DNA of 64,000 nt from IMG/VR virus record IMGVR_UViG_3300020576_006644, positions 1-64,000 of that record; one strand, 5' to 3'. The translations under genes were made by a program, and so were the position numbers. This DNA is from a virus (taxonomy: Duplodnaviria; Caudoviricetes). The notes beneath the pieces were generated by a model. It was not told the origin of the DNA, did not search any database, and was given only the letters and a program-made list of their open reading frames with translations. Shown one piece after another: positions 10,187-18,877 of this stretch (position 1 is the stretch's first letter; each line of letters opens with the position of its first letter).

Positions 10187-11296
10187 ATGCCGTTTCTCAT
10201 TGAGCAGCAGTCGAGCGGGGGCCGCCGGGTGGAGCTGGACGGACGGGCGCTGCCGCGCGCCGACTCGGTGGAGTGGGGCGGGGAGCAGCGGGCGGACGTG
10301 ACCTACCTGCCCGGCTCCCCGGATGCCGTGGGGCAGATCTACGGGCCCAAGCAGCTGCCGATGTCCCCGGAGGGGCGCTGGGGCGACAGGTACATGCGCG
10401 GCGACAGCGCGGCGTGCCTCGTCAAGGTCGACGGGCGGCAGATAGAGAACGCCCTTGAGGCGGCGCAGATCATGGACCGCATTCGCGAGGAGGGCATCCT
10501 GCTCCGGGTGGCCTACGAGTCCGAGGTCCGCTACGGGCTGCTGCTCGAATGGCGCTACCGCCCCTTCGCCGAGGGGCGGACCCTGGAGCGCATCGACTGG
10601 TCGGCCAAGTTCGAGTGGCTCTCTCGCGGGAACAAGATGCTGACGCCGGCCATCCCAAACCGCGTCGGCGCCCAGAACTTCGCCGCCAAGATGGCAATCC
10701 TGTCGGCCCAGGTGGAGACCGCCTGGCAGAACCTGCAGGGCAAGAGCGACCTCCTGCTCGCCGCCGCCGAAGCCCCGGTCGCCCGCATCCGCGGCATCGC
10801 CAACACCGCGCAGCAGGCGGCCAGCTCGCTCACCCAGCGCGCCGCAGACGCGGTCAACATCGCGCAGTCGGTGACGGGCCTTGCGAGCGAAGTCACGGCG
10901 CAGGCTTTCGAGCTCGGCGGGGCCACCGCGTCCATCGCTACCTCGGCCGCCGCCAGCTTGCAGCTCGCCGCCGACCGCACCGGCAACCTTGGGTCCATCA
11001 AAATTGATGGCGGAATCGGCGCAGACATCACGCTGGCCAGAGACCAGCAAGCCGTGCTCGACCTCTGCCGCCAGCTTGCCGACCTCGCCGACCAGATCAC
11101 AGCGGCGGCTGAAAAGGCGCTCGCCGATGTCGAGCCGTATGTGGTCTATGCGATGAGAGGTGAGACTCTGCGCGATATCGCCTTACGCGAGCTCGGAAGT
11201 AGCTCGGCTTGGCGCGATATCGCTATGGTGAACGGATTAAGCGGCTCTGAAGTTGCGCCAGGCTTGCCGCTTCTGATACCGCGTCCTCACACCTAA
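10187..11296 (+). CDS. tail tube initiator / LysM-domain baseplate protein
   Basis: N-terminal tube-like domain; C-terminal GETLRDIALRELGSSSAWRDIAMVNGL..LLIP LysM motif; TATCCT 6 nt before ATG 10187. Confidence 0.78.
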   Translation: MPFLIEQQSSGGRRVELDGRALPRADSVEWGGEQRADVTYLPGSPDAVGQIYGPKQLPMSPEGRWGDRYMRGDSAACLVKVDGRQIENALEAAQIMDRIREEGILLRVAYESEVRYGLLLEWRYRPFAEGRTLERIDWSAKFEWLSRGNKMLTPAIPNRVGAQNFAAKMAILSAQVETAWQNLQGKSDLLLAAAEAPVARIRGIANTAQQAASSLTQRAADAVNIAQSVTGLASEVTAQAFELGGATASIATSAAASLQLAADRTGNLGSIKIDGGIGADITLARDQQAVLDLCRQLADLADQITAAAEKALADVEPYVVYAMRGETLRDIALRELGSSSAWRDIAMVNGLSGSEVAPGLPLLIPRPHT

Positions 11297-11318
11297 CACG
11301 ATCTGCATGTTGCCGGCA

Positions 11319-11530
11319 ATGCTGTATACACAGCAGACGATCTGTTTATCGGCAAGTATCCGACCGGCTTAGTGTACGCAAACAAGCGCGTAGAGGTAGC
11401 AGGAGATTACAAGCGCTTGGCGTACCTGAACTATCGTACGCTGGCGCTAGAGGTAGACAAAGGCTGTCCTAAAGAGTTCCTAGCGCTCATCCAAGCGGAC
11501 CATGCGCGCATGCTGGCGCTCAAACACACG
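11319..11530 (+). pseudogene. possible frameshifted small gene
   Basis: Protein-like DDLFIGKYPTGLVYANKRVEVAGDYKRLAYLNYRTL has no in-frame ATG; ATG 11319 would join it if 2 nt of TATACACAG were removed. Confidence 0.3.
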
Positions 11531-11567
11531 TTAGGTCCGTTTCACGTTCTATTACCTTTCTCTGCTC

Positions 11568-11705
11568 CTAGTACGCTACAGGCTGCAGTACACCGCCGTC
11601 TACTTTCGCATAAAGGACCTTTGAACCGTTGCGGAATACGCGCCAGTAATACCGGCAACCTCCTTGCCGACCGATGTATATAAGGCGCATCTTTTGCTTA
11701 GCCAC
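11568..11705 (-). CDS. 45-aa hypothetical protein
   Basis: GTG start MAKQKMRLIYIGRQ..., GAGGA RBS; below the ORF-track cutoff. Confidence 0.45.
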   Translation of the reverse strand: MAKQKMRLIYIGRQGGCRYYWRVFRNGSKVLYAKVDGGVLQPVAY

Positions 11706-11707
11706 GG

Positions 11708-16242: not shown

Positions 16243-16856
16243 CGATCCTTTACATGTTCCAGGCGGCTCTCTACTGCGAAGATTGCGGCAAGAAGCTGCG
16301 CGCCGACCTCGACAAGCAAGGCAAGACTCCGGCAGATCCTGACGATGAAACGACGTACGACAGCGACGACTATCCTAAGGAGTGCCTAGCTGGCGAGTCT
16401 GACAGCGTGAGTTTCTGCGAAGGTGGCGCAGACTGCGAAGGTGCCATCACGTTGAAGTCCGGCCACAAGATCGGCGCTTGGCTTGAGGAAGATCTGACCG
16501 ATGAAGGTGTGAAAAGCCTTCAAGAGTCGCTTGGCAGCAAAGATCTTGATCCTGTACTCCGCAAGGAGTACGAAAAGATCGCCAAGTCGCTTTACGTCAA
16601 GTACGACTCCAAAGCCGTGCGAGAAGCTAAGGACGAGCATGGCAAGCTACCGCAGTACAGCAGCGTAGGCGGATACACGATCGGCTACTACAGCGCAGGC
16701 GGCGACATGTTCTGCGCGGAGTGCGCAGCAGATCCTGACAATGAGGTGTCGGAGATTGACGCCTACTTCGAAGGTCCGACCGTGCATTGCGATGGCTGTA
16801 ATGTTGAGATAGAGTCTGCGTATGGAGATCCTGACGCGGAAGACAGCGAGGAATAG
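16239..16856 (+). CDS. acidic Cys-rich protein ending GDPDAEDSEE
   Basis: GGAGG RBS, ATGA coupling, CxxC motifs, very D/E-rich. Confidence 0.7.
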   Translation: MTILYMFQAALYCEDCGKKLRADLDKQGKTPADPDDETTYDSDDYPKECLAGESDSVSFCEGGADCEGAITLKSGHKIGAWLEEDLTDEGVKSLQESLGSKDLDPVLRKEYEKIAKSLYVKYDSKAVREAKDEHGKLPQYSSVGGYTIGYYSAGGDMFCAECAADPDNEVSEIDAYFEGPTVHCDGCNVEIESAYGDPDAEDSEE

Positions 16857-16858
16857 GT

Positions 16859-17044
16859 ATGCGAATATGTCCTAAGTGTGGCTGCATCGCACAAGTTGTA
16901 ATTATTAAAAAAGCACGCGTGCGATGTGTGCTTAACGCAGACGGATCGGTAGGTAAATTGTTATCCGCTTCACGTGAAGGTGCTGAATACATCGCTTACG
17001 AGTGCAGCGGTAAACATATATGGACCGATACCTCGCAAGCCTAA
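16859..17044 (+). CDS. small Zn-ribbon protein
   Basis: CPKCG...ECSGKH. Confidence 0.55.
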   Translation: MRICPKCGCIAQVVIIKKARVRCVLNADGSVGKLLSASREGAEYIAYECSGKHIWTDTSQA

Positions 17045-17062
17045 GTAGCGTACACTGCGCCG

Positions 17063-18877
17063 ATGGCAAGGCGCCTTTATCCGTCTATCACTGTCGCGAT
17101 CGGTTTGAGATTCGACGACGCGCTGCATTATATAAAAAGTCAAGCAAAAACACCTTCAACCGAAATAGCGCGGCGGCAGTCGCCGCTTTCCTTTCAAGCT
17201 CAGCAACAGCAGCGGCTCGACTCGATACCGAGTACTGAGCCGCTTTTCGTGAGCTCCGGCAATTCCGATCCTCTTACATGGCTAGTCAACGTCATCGCGC
17301 GCGGCGGCAACCTGACAAAACCTGGCTTCCGCGACGCGGGGACCTTCCGCATCGACCTCGGCTACCACGACCTACCGATCGATCCGCGGCTCGTCAAGGC
17401 CAGCCAGGTCCGCATCTTCGCCGGGACGGTGCGGCCGGAGGACTTCGCCGCCGGCGTCACCGAGGTCATCCCGGTCGGGCAGGGCCGGCACATCCGCCGC
17501 TCGGTCATCCAGGGTATAGGCACCGACGGCAGGGCTGACACGAACCTGCTGGCGCTGTGGGGCTCGGTCGACAACTTCGGCCCGGTCCGCTTCAACGAGA
17601 ATCCCACCCTGACCCTCTCGGGTCGCGATCTGCGCGGAATCTTCATCTCCTCCCCTATGCGCCGCGGGCAGCTCGCCAAGCTGGACCTCACCAAGCCCAT
17701 CGACGAGGTGGTCAAGGAGCTCATCTCCCGGCACCCGCTGGCCGGGCAGATGGGTATCCAGGTCCGCGCCGACGAGTGGCCAAATGACATCGTCCCATCC
17801 CCGGGGGCCAAGGGGAACCTGACCGCGGTGTGGCTCGGCCCCAAGAAGGCCGGCACCAGCGGGCCGCCGCCGGCGCTCATGGAGTCGAAACTCAACTGGT
17901 GGCAGGCCATATCGCAGTACTGCGCGCTCGTCGGCGCGGTCCCCTACTTCGTAGGGATCACGCTGGTCATCCGGCCGGCGCAGTCGCTGTACGACCTGCG
18001 GAACTTGGACCCCTTCGACCCGGCGGCACGGCGGCCCTTCCTGCGCTCCCGCGTGGGGACAAACGGCCTGCCCTCCGGCGTCCGGCAGCTCATCTACGGG
18101 CACAACGTCTCCGAGATCACCTTCGACCGCAAGCTGCAGGGCCCGGACCGGCCCAAGGTCATCGAGGTGGTGGCGCTCGACACCTCGGGGGAGGCGCGCG
18201 GGCAGGCCAAGCTGCTCCGGGCGTACTGGCCCAAGGATCTCGCCAAGCAGCTCAAGAAGCTGCACGCCACCAAGGAAAGCCCGAGCGGCCAGCTCGGGGA
18301 GGACGAGGTGCAACGCATCCCGGTGCAGGGGGTGCGCAGCCAGGAGCAGCTGGAGCAGATCGCCCAAGCCATCTTCGAGACGACCGCCCGCTTCGAGGTG
18401 GAGGGGACCTTCTCAACCCCGGACCTGTCGAGCTACACGCGCGAGGACGGCAACGACGACCCGGACATGCTGCGGCTGCAGGTCGGCGACCCGCTGGAGA
18501 TCTCGGTCGCCACCGAGAAACTGGGGGCTCGCGCCTCCTCCGACTCACCGATCGCCTCGGACCTCACGGCGCTGCAGGGCCTGGGCTTCAACGAGGCCGT
18601 GGACGCGGTGGCGCAGCAGGTCGGGGACCTCAACTTCGCCCGCGCGGTGGTCGCCACATCGCGGGGCCTCGTCGTCGAGACCGAGTCCACCTACCGCTGC
18701 TCCGAGGTGGAGATCGACTGGTCGCTCGACAAGACCACGGTGAAGGGGAAGTTTCACAACTACATCGAGGCCCGATACCGCGACGAGTCGGCGCCCAAGC
18801 CGGCCGGCAAGATCAGCGAGAGCTCGGCGACCCAGACCCCGCGAAAGAGCGTGCTGGACGCCGACTTCGACGAGTAG
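17063..18877 (+). CDS. baseplate hub protein (gp27/gpD-like)
   Basis: 604 aa; LTLSGRDLRGIF, LVIRP, LQVGDPLEI and YRCSEVEIDWS segments; lies between the LysM and spike genes. Confidence 0.65.
   Translation: MARRLYPSITVAIGLRFDDALHYIKSQAKTPSTEIARRQSPLSFQAQQQQRLDSIPSTEPLFVSSGNSDPLTWLVNVIARGGNLTKPGFRDAGTFRIDLGYHDLPIDPRLVKASQVRIFAGTVRPEDFAAGVTEVIPVGQGRHIRRSVIQGIGTDGRADTNLLALWGSVDNFGPVRFNENPTLTLSGRDLRGIFISSPMRRGQLAKLDLTKPIDEVVKELISRHPLAGQMGIQVRADEWPNDIVPSPGAKGNLTAVWLGPKKAGTSGPPPALMESKLNWWQAISQYCALVGAVPYFVGITLVIRPAQSLYDLRNLDPFDPAARRPFLRSRVGTNGLPSGVRQLIYGHNVSEITFDRKLQGPDRPKVIEVVALDTSGEARGQAKLLRAYWPKDLAKQLKKLHATKESPSGQLGEDEVQRIPVQGVRSQEQLEQIAQAIFETTARFEVEGTFSTPDLSSYTREDGNDDPDMLRLQVGDPLEISVATEKLGARASSDSPIASDLTALQGLGFNEAVDAVAQQVGDLNFARAVVATSRGLVVETESTYRCSEVEIDWSLDKTTVKGKFHNYIEARYRDESAPKPAGKISESSATQTPRKSVLDADFDE

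What the first reader, a model, noticed from the sequence alone, without database searches (positions are those of the whole stretch)
10994..17337. 6.3-kb zone almost free of GGG/CCC, with edges inside structural genes
Manual scan found one GGG (11765-11767) and no CCC in 6,344 bp. Roughly 250 would be expected if G and C are each about 0.27 (my estimate), and flanking DNA has several per 60-nt line. Other low-GC parts, such as the HNH gene, do contain GGG/CCC, so composition alone does not explain it. The zone includes the last ~300 nt of the LysM gene and the first ~275 nt of the hub gene, so it is positional selection rather than a simple insertion. Hypotheses: (a) it is a long terminal repeat or first-injected segment (T5-like) purged of a motif recognised by a host defence; (b) virion DNA is modified at GGG/CCC and the first-transcribed region must stay unmodified for host RNA polymerase.
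Basis: partly seen in the sequence, partly recalled or inferred. Interest (0 to 1): 0.9.

Follow-up and report, generated by a model that had tools for sequence, protein, structure and literature searches.

The report
G-run-free gene islands in a phage
A 6.3-kb island of small accessory genes inside the tail-gene cluster of a high-GC phage has lost every GGG and CCC except one; a second island and all close relatives show the same ban, which even changes protein sequences, so something unknown must act on G-runs in this phage's DNA.

Summary
Window 10994-17337 holds one GGG and no CCC, against 118 (first-order model) to 276 (zero-order) expected. No other trinucleotide behaves this way.

The 112.5-kb phage genome has a second such zone, at genome 93861-96495. 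Both zones are divergent operons of small genes around the same 128-bp element, with sigma54-like promoters found nowhere else in the genome.

The zone sits at the same place, between the LysM-like and hub genes, in independent metagenomic relatives down to about 44% hub identity. It is absent where the island is absent.

The ban is active and acts on DNA:
- 545 substitutions since the split from the nearest relative created none of about 57 expected sites.
- No Trp in zone proteins is followed by G/A/V/D/E (0 of 41).
- A near-invariant AWADH motif reads AWSDH here.
- Orthologous hub and LysM codons change composition only where they lie in the zone.

My best reading (about 45%): these separately regulated, host-promoter-driven islands must stay free of a DNA modification, nick or adduct aimed at G-runs. 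The agent is not identified. A T5-like terminal repeat is not supported.

The scan had independently noted the second zone on this same genome. I found no published description.

The parts
10994..17337 (.). GGG/CCC-free zone 1: 6,344 nt, GC 0.56, one GGG at 11765
10157..11296 (+). LysM-like baseplate gene. Its last 303 nt lie in the zone, where GC3 falls from 0.9 or more to 0.57-0.8
11372..11683 (+). 103-aa island ORF. Its homolog in relative L001 sits just upstream of the hub gene, so it has moved within the island
11708..11884 (-). 58-aa ORF holding the only exception, a CCC Pro codon (GGG on + at 11765-11767). It shares its last 11 residues with ORF 16239-16856
12272..12757 (-). Core island protein family C (161 aa, unknown function), found only in this phage clade
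12742..13410 (-). Core island protein family B: ASCH (PUA-like) fold plus a conserved C-terminal Cys/His motif. Found only in this clade, always inside a zone
13383..14540 (-). Three further leftward island ORFs (127, 175 and 87 aa). The 87-aa ORF matches phrog_23430 (unknown function)
14524..14539 (-). Sigma54-like promoter (GG -24 / GC -12 type), followed by a conserved leader and the ATG of the leftward operon
14601..14728 (.). 128-bp central element, 93% identical and inverted in zone 2 (genome 95016-94889). It has 19-nt inverted-repeat arms and a LexA-box-like palindrome at 14622-14637
14769..14784 (+). Sigma54-like promoter of the rightward operon
14798..15613 (+). Family A protein (271 aa). 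It belongs to a widespread unnamed family of about 150 aa. The family's near-invariant AWADH and ILWG read AWSDH and LTWC here, which avoids TGG-G
15616..15631 (+). Third sigma54-like promoter (TGGCAC-N5-TTGCA), ahead of ORF 15635
15635..17044 (+). Rightward island ORFs: 140 aa, 61 aa, a 205-aa family A paralog and 61 aa. Several are Cys-rich and look like zinc ribbons
17063..18877 (+). Baseplate hub-like gene. Its first 275 nt lie in the zone (GC3 0.47-0.67, against 0.93 after it)
16824..16856 (.). One arm of a 33-nt inverted repeat (the other arm is 11708-11740, 94% complementary). The arms bracket 5.1 kb of the island

Best explanation
The zone is one of two conserved 'G-run-free islands' in a complete 112.5-kb metagenomic tailed phage. 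Each island is a pair of divergent operons of small accessory genes, read from host-type promoters (sigma54-like here, sigma70-like in a relative). The rest of the genome uses a different promoter that carries an operator. Within the islands, and for 20-300 bp beyond them, every run of three G or three C on either strand is removed by strong, continuing purifying selection on the DNA itself. The most likely reason is that some activity aimed at G3:C3 tracts makes ordinary phage DNA a poor or dangerous template at the time these islands must work. That activity could be a bulky modification, a nick or an adduct. It could come from the phage's own clade-specific machinery or from a host immune enzyme. 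The islands stay usable because they offer it no site. I lean slightly to a phage-encoded agent, because the ban is near-absolute, clade-wide and co-inherited with the island. Shown: the ban, its position, its conservation, its DNA-level and strand-symmetric nature, and the separate promoter class. Inferred: that the islands are expressed first or separately, and that a G-run-directed agent exists at all.
For: The ban and its uniqueness.

Same zone at the same locus in independent assemblies. L001: 5.8 kb, 0 sites. L003: 4.9 kb, 1 site. L009: 5.4 kb, with three or four sites at two places. L051: 5.0 kb, 0 sites. Partial zones in L002, L004 and L005. A mini-zone in L010 and a leaky zone in L012/L013. 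Zone 2 is also conserved next to the D12 methylase gene (L049, L050). There is no zone where there is no island: L011 and 34 IMG/VR loci.

Ongoing selection: 545 substitutions between the window and L001 created 0 sites, against 57 +/- 9 expected.

DNA-level constraint overrides protein:
- 0 of 41 Trp are followed by G/A/V/D/E, against 159 of 447 outside the zones.
- 0 of 42 internal Met are followed by Gly, against 34 of 455.
- AWADH reads AWSDH.

Positional: orthologous hub and LysM codons change only inside the zone.

Strand-symmetric: GG and CC are each at 0.67 of expectation on the coding strand, and both motifs are absent whatever the gene orientation. This points to duplex DNA, or both strands, rather than RNA.

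Distinct regulation:
- All 5 sigma54-like sites of the genome lie in the zones.
- A shared 128-bp hub sits at the centre of each zone.
- All 21 operator-plus-TTGC promoters lie outside the zones and are conserved in relatives.
- No phage RNA polymerase or enhancer-binding protein was found.

A guanine-directed threat is plausible, because the phage carries a NADAR gene next to the zone. [quoted passage not shown]
Against: No enzyme with G3/C3 specificity is identified. The phage lacks TGT/DpdA, C5 methylase and DarT. Its recognisable methylases are adenine-type. E. coli DarT1 shows no consensus motif (PMC11543638). The NADAR gene lies outside the zone, and I saw it only in the window and in L001. 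Expression timing is not known. In the window, the left 700 bp of the zone holds + strand genes that do not belong to the leftward operon, so the zone is a DNA domain rather than strictly a transcription unit. The extra fall in GC3 (0.4-0.7, against about 0.80 expected from the ban alone) is not explained by site avoidance alone. If a host enzyme is the agent, it is hard to see why it would be uniform across the hosts of a whole phage clade. If the phage's own modification is the agent, no known phage DNA modification targets G-runs or blocks host RNA polymerase in this way (my own knowledge).
Confidence: 0.45

Rival explanations
1. Replication or priming. The phage's DnaG-type primase (or the host's) starts primers at a CCC/GGG-type triplet. 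The islands, centred on a promoter-plus-repeat element that may be an origin, are kept free of priming sites on both strands.
For: The phage encodes a DnaG-like primase and a DnaB-like helicase. Primases that read G/C-only triplets exist: Aquifex DnaG uses CCC (PMC2532735) and plant Twinkle uses (G/C)GGA (PMC5737085). A single-strand reader acting on both strands gives exactly the GGG-plus-CCC symmetry. Each zone is centred on a 128-bp element with inverted repeats.
Against: There is no evident benefit in forbidding lagging-strand priming over 2.6-6.3 kb. The primase's specificity is unknown. The cumulative GC-skew minimum, the usual origin cue, is at about 64 kb and not in a zone.
Confidence: 0.1
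2. DNA structure. G3/C3 tracts (G-quadruplex or i-motif seeds, A-form-prone steps) are excluded so that the islands have special physical properties, such as easy handling of supercoils or Z-DNA-prone CG alternation. Their promoters or regulators would need these properties.
For: In the zones the GC content is carried by alternating steps: GCGC 2.8x, CGCG 2.3x, CGCGCG 4x, with GG/CC at 0.63. Transcription is divergent from a central hub. The phage encodes a RecQ helicase.
Against: Structural effects need clusters of runs, not single triplets, so they would not remove every isolated GGG or force amino-acid changes. The CG alternation is the expected by-product of keeping GC-rich codons without runs.
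Confidence: 0.1
3. Mutational footprint. An APOBEC-like deaminase or other CCC-directed mutator acts on these regions, for example when they are single-stranded, and erodes the motif and the GC content.
For: Both the motif and GC3 fall together and by position, with edges inside genes. CTAG, which is depleted elsewhere (0.29 of expectation), is at expectation in the zones. The phage polymerase carries a UDG-like domain.
Against: Zone divergence between the window and L001 (74-88% identity) equals that of the flanks (76-83%). The substitution spectrum is symmetric. There is no excess of CCT/AGG over other CCN/NGG words. There is no strand asymmetry relative to transcription. GC-rich alternating words are enriched, so GC is being kept rather than eroded.
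Confidence: 0.07
4. T5-like first-step-transfer or terminal-repeat segment, purged of a restriction motif.
For: The logic has a precedent. The T5 first-step-transfer region lacks EcoRI sites while the rest of the genome has them (my own knowledge: Davison and Brunel 1979). How T5 DNA escapes its own host-DNA degradation is still open (bioRxiv 10.64898/2026.04.02.716235).
Against: The zone is single-copy and internal, embedded between baseplate genes in all relatives. There are two zones about 27 kb apart. The only end repeat is 77 bp. No homologs of T5 pre-early genes turned up.
Confidence: 0.05
5. RNA-level immunity. Island transcripts lack the cleavage motif of an mRNA endoribonuclease, like ACA-less mRNAs that resist MazF.
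For: Three-base motifs are typical of mRNA interferases (my own knowledge). The zone roughly matches operons plus a short 3' margin.
Against: Both GGG and CCC are absent from transcripts of either orientation and from intergenic DNA. GG and CC are equally depleted on the coding strand. The right half has genes on one strand only yet lacks both motifs.
Confidence: 0.05
6. Foreign mosaic or artefact. The zone is recently imported low-GC DNA, a synthetic insert, or an assembly error.
For: The zone has lower GC and atypical codon use. BLAST against GenBank phages finds nothing.
Against: The same zone appears in many independent assemblies from ENA, NCBI, JGI and Logan. Core island proteins have diverged in step with the hub, at about 59% identity in both. 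Conserved flanking codons share the composition.
Confidence: 0.02

Closest known systems
Restriction-site or motif avoidance in phage genomes, especially the EcoRI-free first-step-transfer region of phage T5 (my own knowledge) and PAM or motif depletion (PMC4246573)
   Same: A defined short DNA word is missing from part of a phage genome. The missing word is symmetric on both strands. The logic is that a first-used region must survive an agent that the rest of the genome is later protected from.
   Different: The word here is only 3 nt long. The ban is essentially absolute over kilobases and rewrites protein sequences. It is confined to two internal islands rather than a leading end. No enzyme with this specificity is known.
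Morons, that is, accessory transcription units inserted between late genes of tailed phages (my own knowledge)
   Same: The island has its own promoters, lower GC than its surroundings, a position between tail or baseplate genes, and variable gene content with rearrangements among relatives.
   Different: The compositional regime spills 20-300 bp into the conserved flanking genes. It includes a motif ban and has been stable through divergence down to about 44% hub identity, so it is not a trace of recent import.
ACA-less, MazF-resistant mRNAs (my own knowledge)
   Same: Total absence of a 3-nt word from a set of genes that must keep working while a sequence-specific enzyme is active.
   Different: Here both the word and its complement are missing in every orientation and in non-coding DNA, which points to DNA rather than RNA.
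DarT1 / NADAR guanine ADP-ribosylation conflict (PMC11543638, PMC11825919)
   Same: This is a guanine-directed DNA adduct that blocks replication and sometimes transcription. It acts on single strands through short contexts, and phages counter it with NADAR enzymes. This phage has a NADAR gene 1.5 kb from the zone.
   Different: No GGG preference is known for DarT1. The NADAR gene is outside the zone and was not seen in all zone-bearing relatives. Nothing links the two beyond proximity.
Chlorovirus frequent-cutting nickases and methylases with 2-4-nt sites, such as Nt.CviPII at CCD (my own knowledge)
   Same: They show that virus-encoded DNA enzymes can have recognition words as short as three bases and be used against host DNA early in infection.
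   Different: Chloroviruses protect their whole genome by methylation. No motif-free island is described, and no homolog was found here.

Membership tests
Phage motif / restriction-site avoidance | Statistically significant depletion of a defined word | tested here: met
   1 site observed against 118-276 expected. It is the unique outlier among all 2- to 4-mers.
Phage motif / restriction-site avoidance | The word is the recognition site of an identified host or phage enzyme | not testable with these tools
   The host is unknown. The phage has no candidate with G/C-run specificity.
Phage motif / restriction-site avoidance | Depletion is maintained by selection rather than by ancestry | tested here: met
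   0 sites created by 545 substitutions, against 57 +/- 9 expected. Amino-acid pairs that force the motif are absent.
T5-like first-step-transfer / long terminal repeat | The region lies at a genome end and is present twice | tested here: not met
   The zone is single-copy and internal. The only end repeat is 77 bp.
T5-like first-step-transfer / long terminal repeat | The region enters the cell and is expressed first | not testable with these tools
Moron / accessory island | Own promoters, deviant composition, insertion between late genes, variable content | tested here: met
   Terminators are not shown: the hairpins occur at chance level.
Sigma54-dependent promoter | GG at -24 and GC at -12 with fixed spacing, just upstream of a gene | tested here: met
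   Five sites, all in the zones and all correctly oriented before ORF starts. My own hand estimate is that fewer than one would occur by chance in the genome.
Sigma54-dependent promoter | A cognate enhancer-binding ATPase | tested here: not met
   PF00158 is absent from the phage, so a host activator would be needed. The promoter type is not conserved in L003 or L009.
DarT1-NADAR conflict | A NADAR hydrolase is present | tested here: met
   PF08719, E = 3e-12, above the cut-off. The NCBIfam NADAR anti-phage model scores below its cut-off.
DarT1-NADAR conflict | The toxin prefers GGG | tested here: inconclusive
   Checked only in the literature: no consensus motif for E. coli C7 DarT1 (PMC11543638). 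Enzymes of this phage's hosts are unknown.
7-deazaguanine (DpdA) DNA modification | A TGT-family transglycosylase in the phage | tested here: not met
   PF01702 is absent.
ASCH / PUA-like domain (island protein B) | ASCH fold | tested here: met
   The model has pLDDT 86. Foldseek matches the TRIP4 and ZmASCH ASCH domains with probability 1.0 and E = 2e-4. The atlas and viral libraries agree. No Pfam sequence hit.

The most novel reading that the evidence does not exclude
The islands are the genomic shadow of an undescribed DNA-level system that reads runs of three G:C pairs. It could be a phage-encoded hypermodification or nicking of its own and/or host DNA. The agent might be encoded by the clade-specific island proteins, for example the ASCH/Cys-His protein B together with protein C. 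Alternatively it could be a host immune enzyme of equally short specificity. The phage's first-needed operons escape by carrying no target, to the point of rewriting conserved protein motifs.
Probability: 0.35. Interest if true: 0.92.

Novelty: new variant of a known kind. Interest (0 to 1): 0.86.

Why it matters
A total ban on a three-base word, held over kilobases for a long evolutionary time and strong enough to change conserved amino acids, is among the cleanest sequence signatures of selection on DNA as such. It predicts an enzyme or modification that reads G-runs and has not been described. It also marks exactly which genes the phage must keep out of that agent's reach. The same simple test, a search for long runs free of one k-mer, can be run over all viral genomes to find further hidden DNA-targeting systems and their 'immune' gene sets. 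The G-run-free cassettes also offer ready-made negative-control substrates for finding the agent biochemically.

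Tried and rejected
- BLAST of the zone, hub and LysM genes against 50,697 GenBank phages found no match. A scan of GTDB genomes for hub relatives found none, so no host or cultured relative is known.
- Pfam, PHROGs and NCBIfam on zone proteins gave almost nothing. The language-model atlas search on protein A gave scores below 0.8, which is uninformative.
- An Rfam search of the zone found nothing.
- Promoter and terminator consensus scans were at chance level. Hairpins near the hub start are suggestive only.
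- Rejected: in-frame codon avoidance, because the ban holds in all frames, on both strands and in intergenic DNA.
- Rejected: a composition-only effect, because other low-GC parts keep their sites.
- Rejected: a G-quadruplex-only explanation, because single triplets are banned.
- Rejected: classical PurZ / Z-genome as the cause. The PurA-like protein matches bacterial PurA best, and a G/C-only word is unrelated to adenine replacement.
- Rejected: invertase-driven switching, because no resolvase is present.
CTAG is simply at random expectation in the zones and depleted elsewhere.
- Literature searches for a prior description found none.

Full report
**Observation.** A direct count finds one GGG (11765-11767) and no CCC between 10994 and 17337. 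The neighbouring sites are at 10991 and 17338.
- The zone's own base composition predicts 276 sites, and a first-order Markov model predicts 118.
- The flanks carry 45-50 sites per kb, and other low-GC kilobases of the window keep 30-36 sites.
- Across all 2-, 3- and 4-letter words in the whole genome, the GGG/CCC-free runs are unique outliers: 255 and 121 expected sites missed, against 22 for the next word.
- Apart from GGG/CCC-containing words, no 4-mer is absent. GG/CC dinucleotides are at 0.63 of expectation (flanks 0.91). The remaining GC is carried by alternating steps: GCGC 2.8x, CGCG 2.3x, CGATCG 6.7x. CTAG, strongly depleted elsewhere (0.29), sits at random expectation.

**Context.** The window is the first 64 kb of a complete IMG/VR virus record of 112,623 nt. 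The record has a 77-nt end overlap, 65% GC and 100% completeness by CheckV.
- A second GGG/CCC-free run lies at genome 93861-96495 (2,635 nt).
- Both zones have the same anatomy: a leftward and a rightward operon of small ORFs diverging from a central non-coding hub.
- The hubs share a 128-bp element, 93% identical and in inverted orientation (14601-14728 against genome 95016-94889).
- Each operon starts behind a sigma54-type promoter (TGGCAC/T, five bases, xTGCT/A) and a conserved leader. All five matches to that pattern in the genome lie in the zones.
- The rest of the genome instead carries 21 copies of a LexA-box-like palindrome followed by TTGC. This motif sits at gene starts, is conserved in relatives and never falls in a zone.
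- The phage encodes no RNA polymerase and no sigma54 activator.
- The zones are therefore a separate regulatory class read by host polymerase. Whether they are 'early' is inference.

**Conservation.** The hub-like protein has 36 homologs in metagenomes.
- In every contig with 44% identity or more that reaches the locus, an island of divergent small genes lies between the LysM-like gene and the hub gene and is GGG/CCC-free:

| Locus | Zone | Sites | Hub identity |
|---|---|---|---|
| L001 | 1715-7555 | 0 | 89% |
| L003 | 5193-10091 | 1 | 59% |
| L009 | 4629-10017 | three or four, at two places | 56% |
| L051 | 6324-11345 | 0 | from a 110.9-kb contig |

- Further cases are the partial views L002, L004 and L005, a 590-bp mini-zone around a one-gene island in L010 (44%), and a leaky version in L012/L013 (7 sites in 3.3 kb).
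- Zone 2 is likewise present upstream of the D12 methylase homologs in L049 and L050.
- Where the island is absent, no run free of any trinucleotide is seen: L011 (34%) and 34 IMG/VR loci at 31-40%.
- The edges vary: 175-303 nt before the LysM-gene stop, and 17-275 nt into the hub.

**The ban is positional, active and acts on DNA.**
- Orthologous hub N-terminal and LysM C-terminal codons have GC3 of 0.47-0.8 and no sites where they lie in a zone. In relatives where they lie outside, GC3 is about 0.9 with normal site density.
- Between the window and L001, 545 substitutions over 2,849 aligned zone positions created no site. Random placement with the same spectrum creates 57 +/- 9.
- Zone proteins contain 41 Trp, none followed by Gly, Ala, Val, Asp or Glu (which would force TGG-G), against 159 of 447 elsewhere. 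My arithmetic gives a probability of about 1.5e-8. Met-Gly is 0 of 42 against 34 of 455, and Pro content is 3.7% against 6.5%.
- Protein A (14798-15613) belongs to a widespread family of about 150 aa in which AWADHxEE and ILWG are nearly invariant. The zone copies read AWSDH and LTWC.
- GG and CC are equally depleted on the coding strand. Both motifs are missing whatever the gene orientation and in intergenic DNA. This argues for duplex DNA, or both single strands, and against an RNA target.
- Divergence in the zone equals that of the flanks and the substitution spectrum is symmetric, so there is no sign of hypermutation.
- Synonymous recoding under the phage's codon usage with the ban imposed gives GC3 of about 0.80 and still leaves 1-19 forced sites per gene. 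The real zones go further, in GC3 and in amino-acid choice.

**Island content.** Genes are shuffled among zones and relatives by translocation and inversion.
- The B-C gene pair faces the hub in some relatives and faces away in others.
- Genes of the window's zone 2 have homologs in the hub-side island of L002 and L009.
- A 33-nt inverted repeat brackets 5.1 kb of the window's island.
- Core proteins B and C occur only in this clade.
- B folds as an ASCH (PUA-like) nucleic-acid-binding domain with a conserved Cys/His tail.
- The functions of A and C are unknown.

**What it most likely is.** I read the zones as separately regulated, host-promoter-driven accessory operons that must remain free of targets for a G-run-directed DNA-level activity.
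- The near-absolute, clade-wide, vertically stable nature of the ban suggests an agent that is always present. That slightly favours something the phage clade itself encodes or carries: a modification or nicking of G3:C3 tracts that the first-used template must avoid, or an island-encoded enzyme to which its own genes must be immune.
- A host immune enzyme with a very short context, acting on either strand, is the main alternative. The phage's NADAR gene (18878-19498) shows that guanine ADP-ribosylation is a relevant threat (PMC11543638, PMC11825919). However, E. coli DarT1 has no known GGG preference, and the NADAR gene lies outside the zone.
- No candidate enzyme was found: TGT/DpdA, C5 methylase, DarT and resolvase are absent, and the recognisable methylases are adenine-type.
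- The primase, DNA-structure, mutational, RNA-level and T5-like readings are weighed as rivals. The T5-like terminal-repeat idea fails on copy number and position.

**Known comparisons and novelty.** The nearest concepts are restriction-site avoidance (notably the EcoRI-free first-step-transfer DNA of T5; my own knowledge), morons, and ACA-less MazF-resistant mRNAs.
- None combines a 3-nt word, total absence over kilobases, restriction to internal islands, spill-over into conserved flanking genes and rewriting of protein motifs.
- Four literature searches found no description.
- I class it as a new variant of motif avoidance, with a substantial chance that it reveals a new kind of DNA-targeting system.

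Noticed in passing
genome-wide, e.g. window 1833-1848, 24995-25010, 27377-27392, 29755-29770, 44204-44219: There are 21 copies of a LexA-box-like palindrome (CTGAAC-N4-GTTCAG type) followed two bases later by TTGC. They lie at gene starts, sometimes serve two divergent genes, and are conserved in relatives L001, L003, L009, L010 and L013. This is probably the phage's main operator/promoter, possibly under host LexA or a phage LexA-like protein.
   Followed up: partly
window 11708-11740 and 16824-16856: A 33-nt inverted repeat (94% complementary) brackets 5.1 kb of the island and encodes the same 11 C-terminal residues in two ORFs. The orientation of the core B-C gene pair relative to the hub differs among relatives, so the island has inverted during evolution. 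The phage has no resolvase or invertase.
   Followed up: partly
window 18878-19498 (-): A NADAR-domain gene lies directly after the hub gene and is also present in L001 (9114-9584). It is a likely counter to guanine ADP-ribosylation. It is not inside the zone.
   Followed up: partly
window 44216-47020 (-): A family A DNA polymerase with an N-terminal domain of the uracil-DNA-glycosylase superfamily, fused in one 934-aa ORF.
   Followed up: no
genome 64862-68394 (L006 862-4394): An operon with a DnaJ-domain protein kinase, an unknown 340-aa protein and a divergent adenylosuccinate-synthetase-like protein. The last matches bacterial PurA best in the PDB and is not obviously a PurZ.
   Followed up: partly
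genome 71131-72630 (L006 7131-8630, -): The phage encodes a POT/MFS-family transporter. Homologs lie next to the LysM-like gene in relatives L003 and L009 and in the 104-kb contig. This is unusual cargo for a phage.
   Followed up: no
genome 82228-84295 (L048 229-2296): A ParB-N protein sits next to a protein with a weak PAPS-reductase (PP-loop) domain. It is a candidate DNA-modification pair with no known specificity.
   Followed up: partly
L013 8151-9248 (-): In a more distant relative the (leaky) zone contains a DNA polymerase III beta-clamp-like gene, so island cargo is not limited to tiny ORFans.
   Followed up: no
relatives L004, L009, L010, L012 (baseplate module): A GGDEF-domain gene is conserved on the opposite strand among the baseplate genes of relatives.
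   Followed up: no
window outside the zones: CTAG is strongly depleted in the bulk of the genome (0.29 of expectation) but not in the zones (1.0). CGATCG is 6.7-fold over expectation in the zones.
   Followed up: partly
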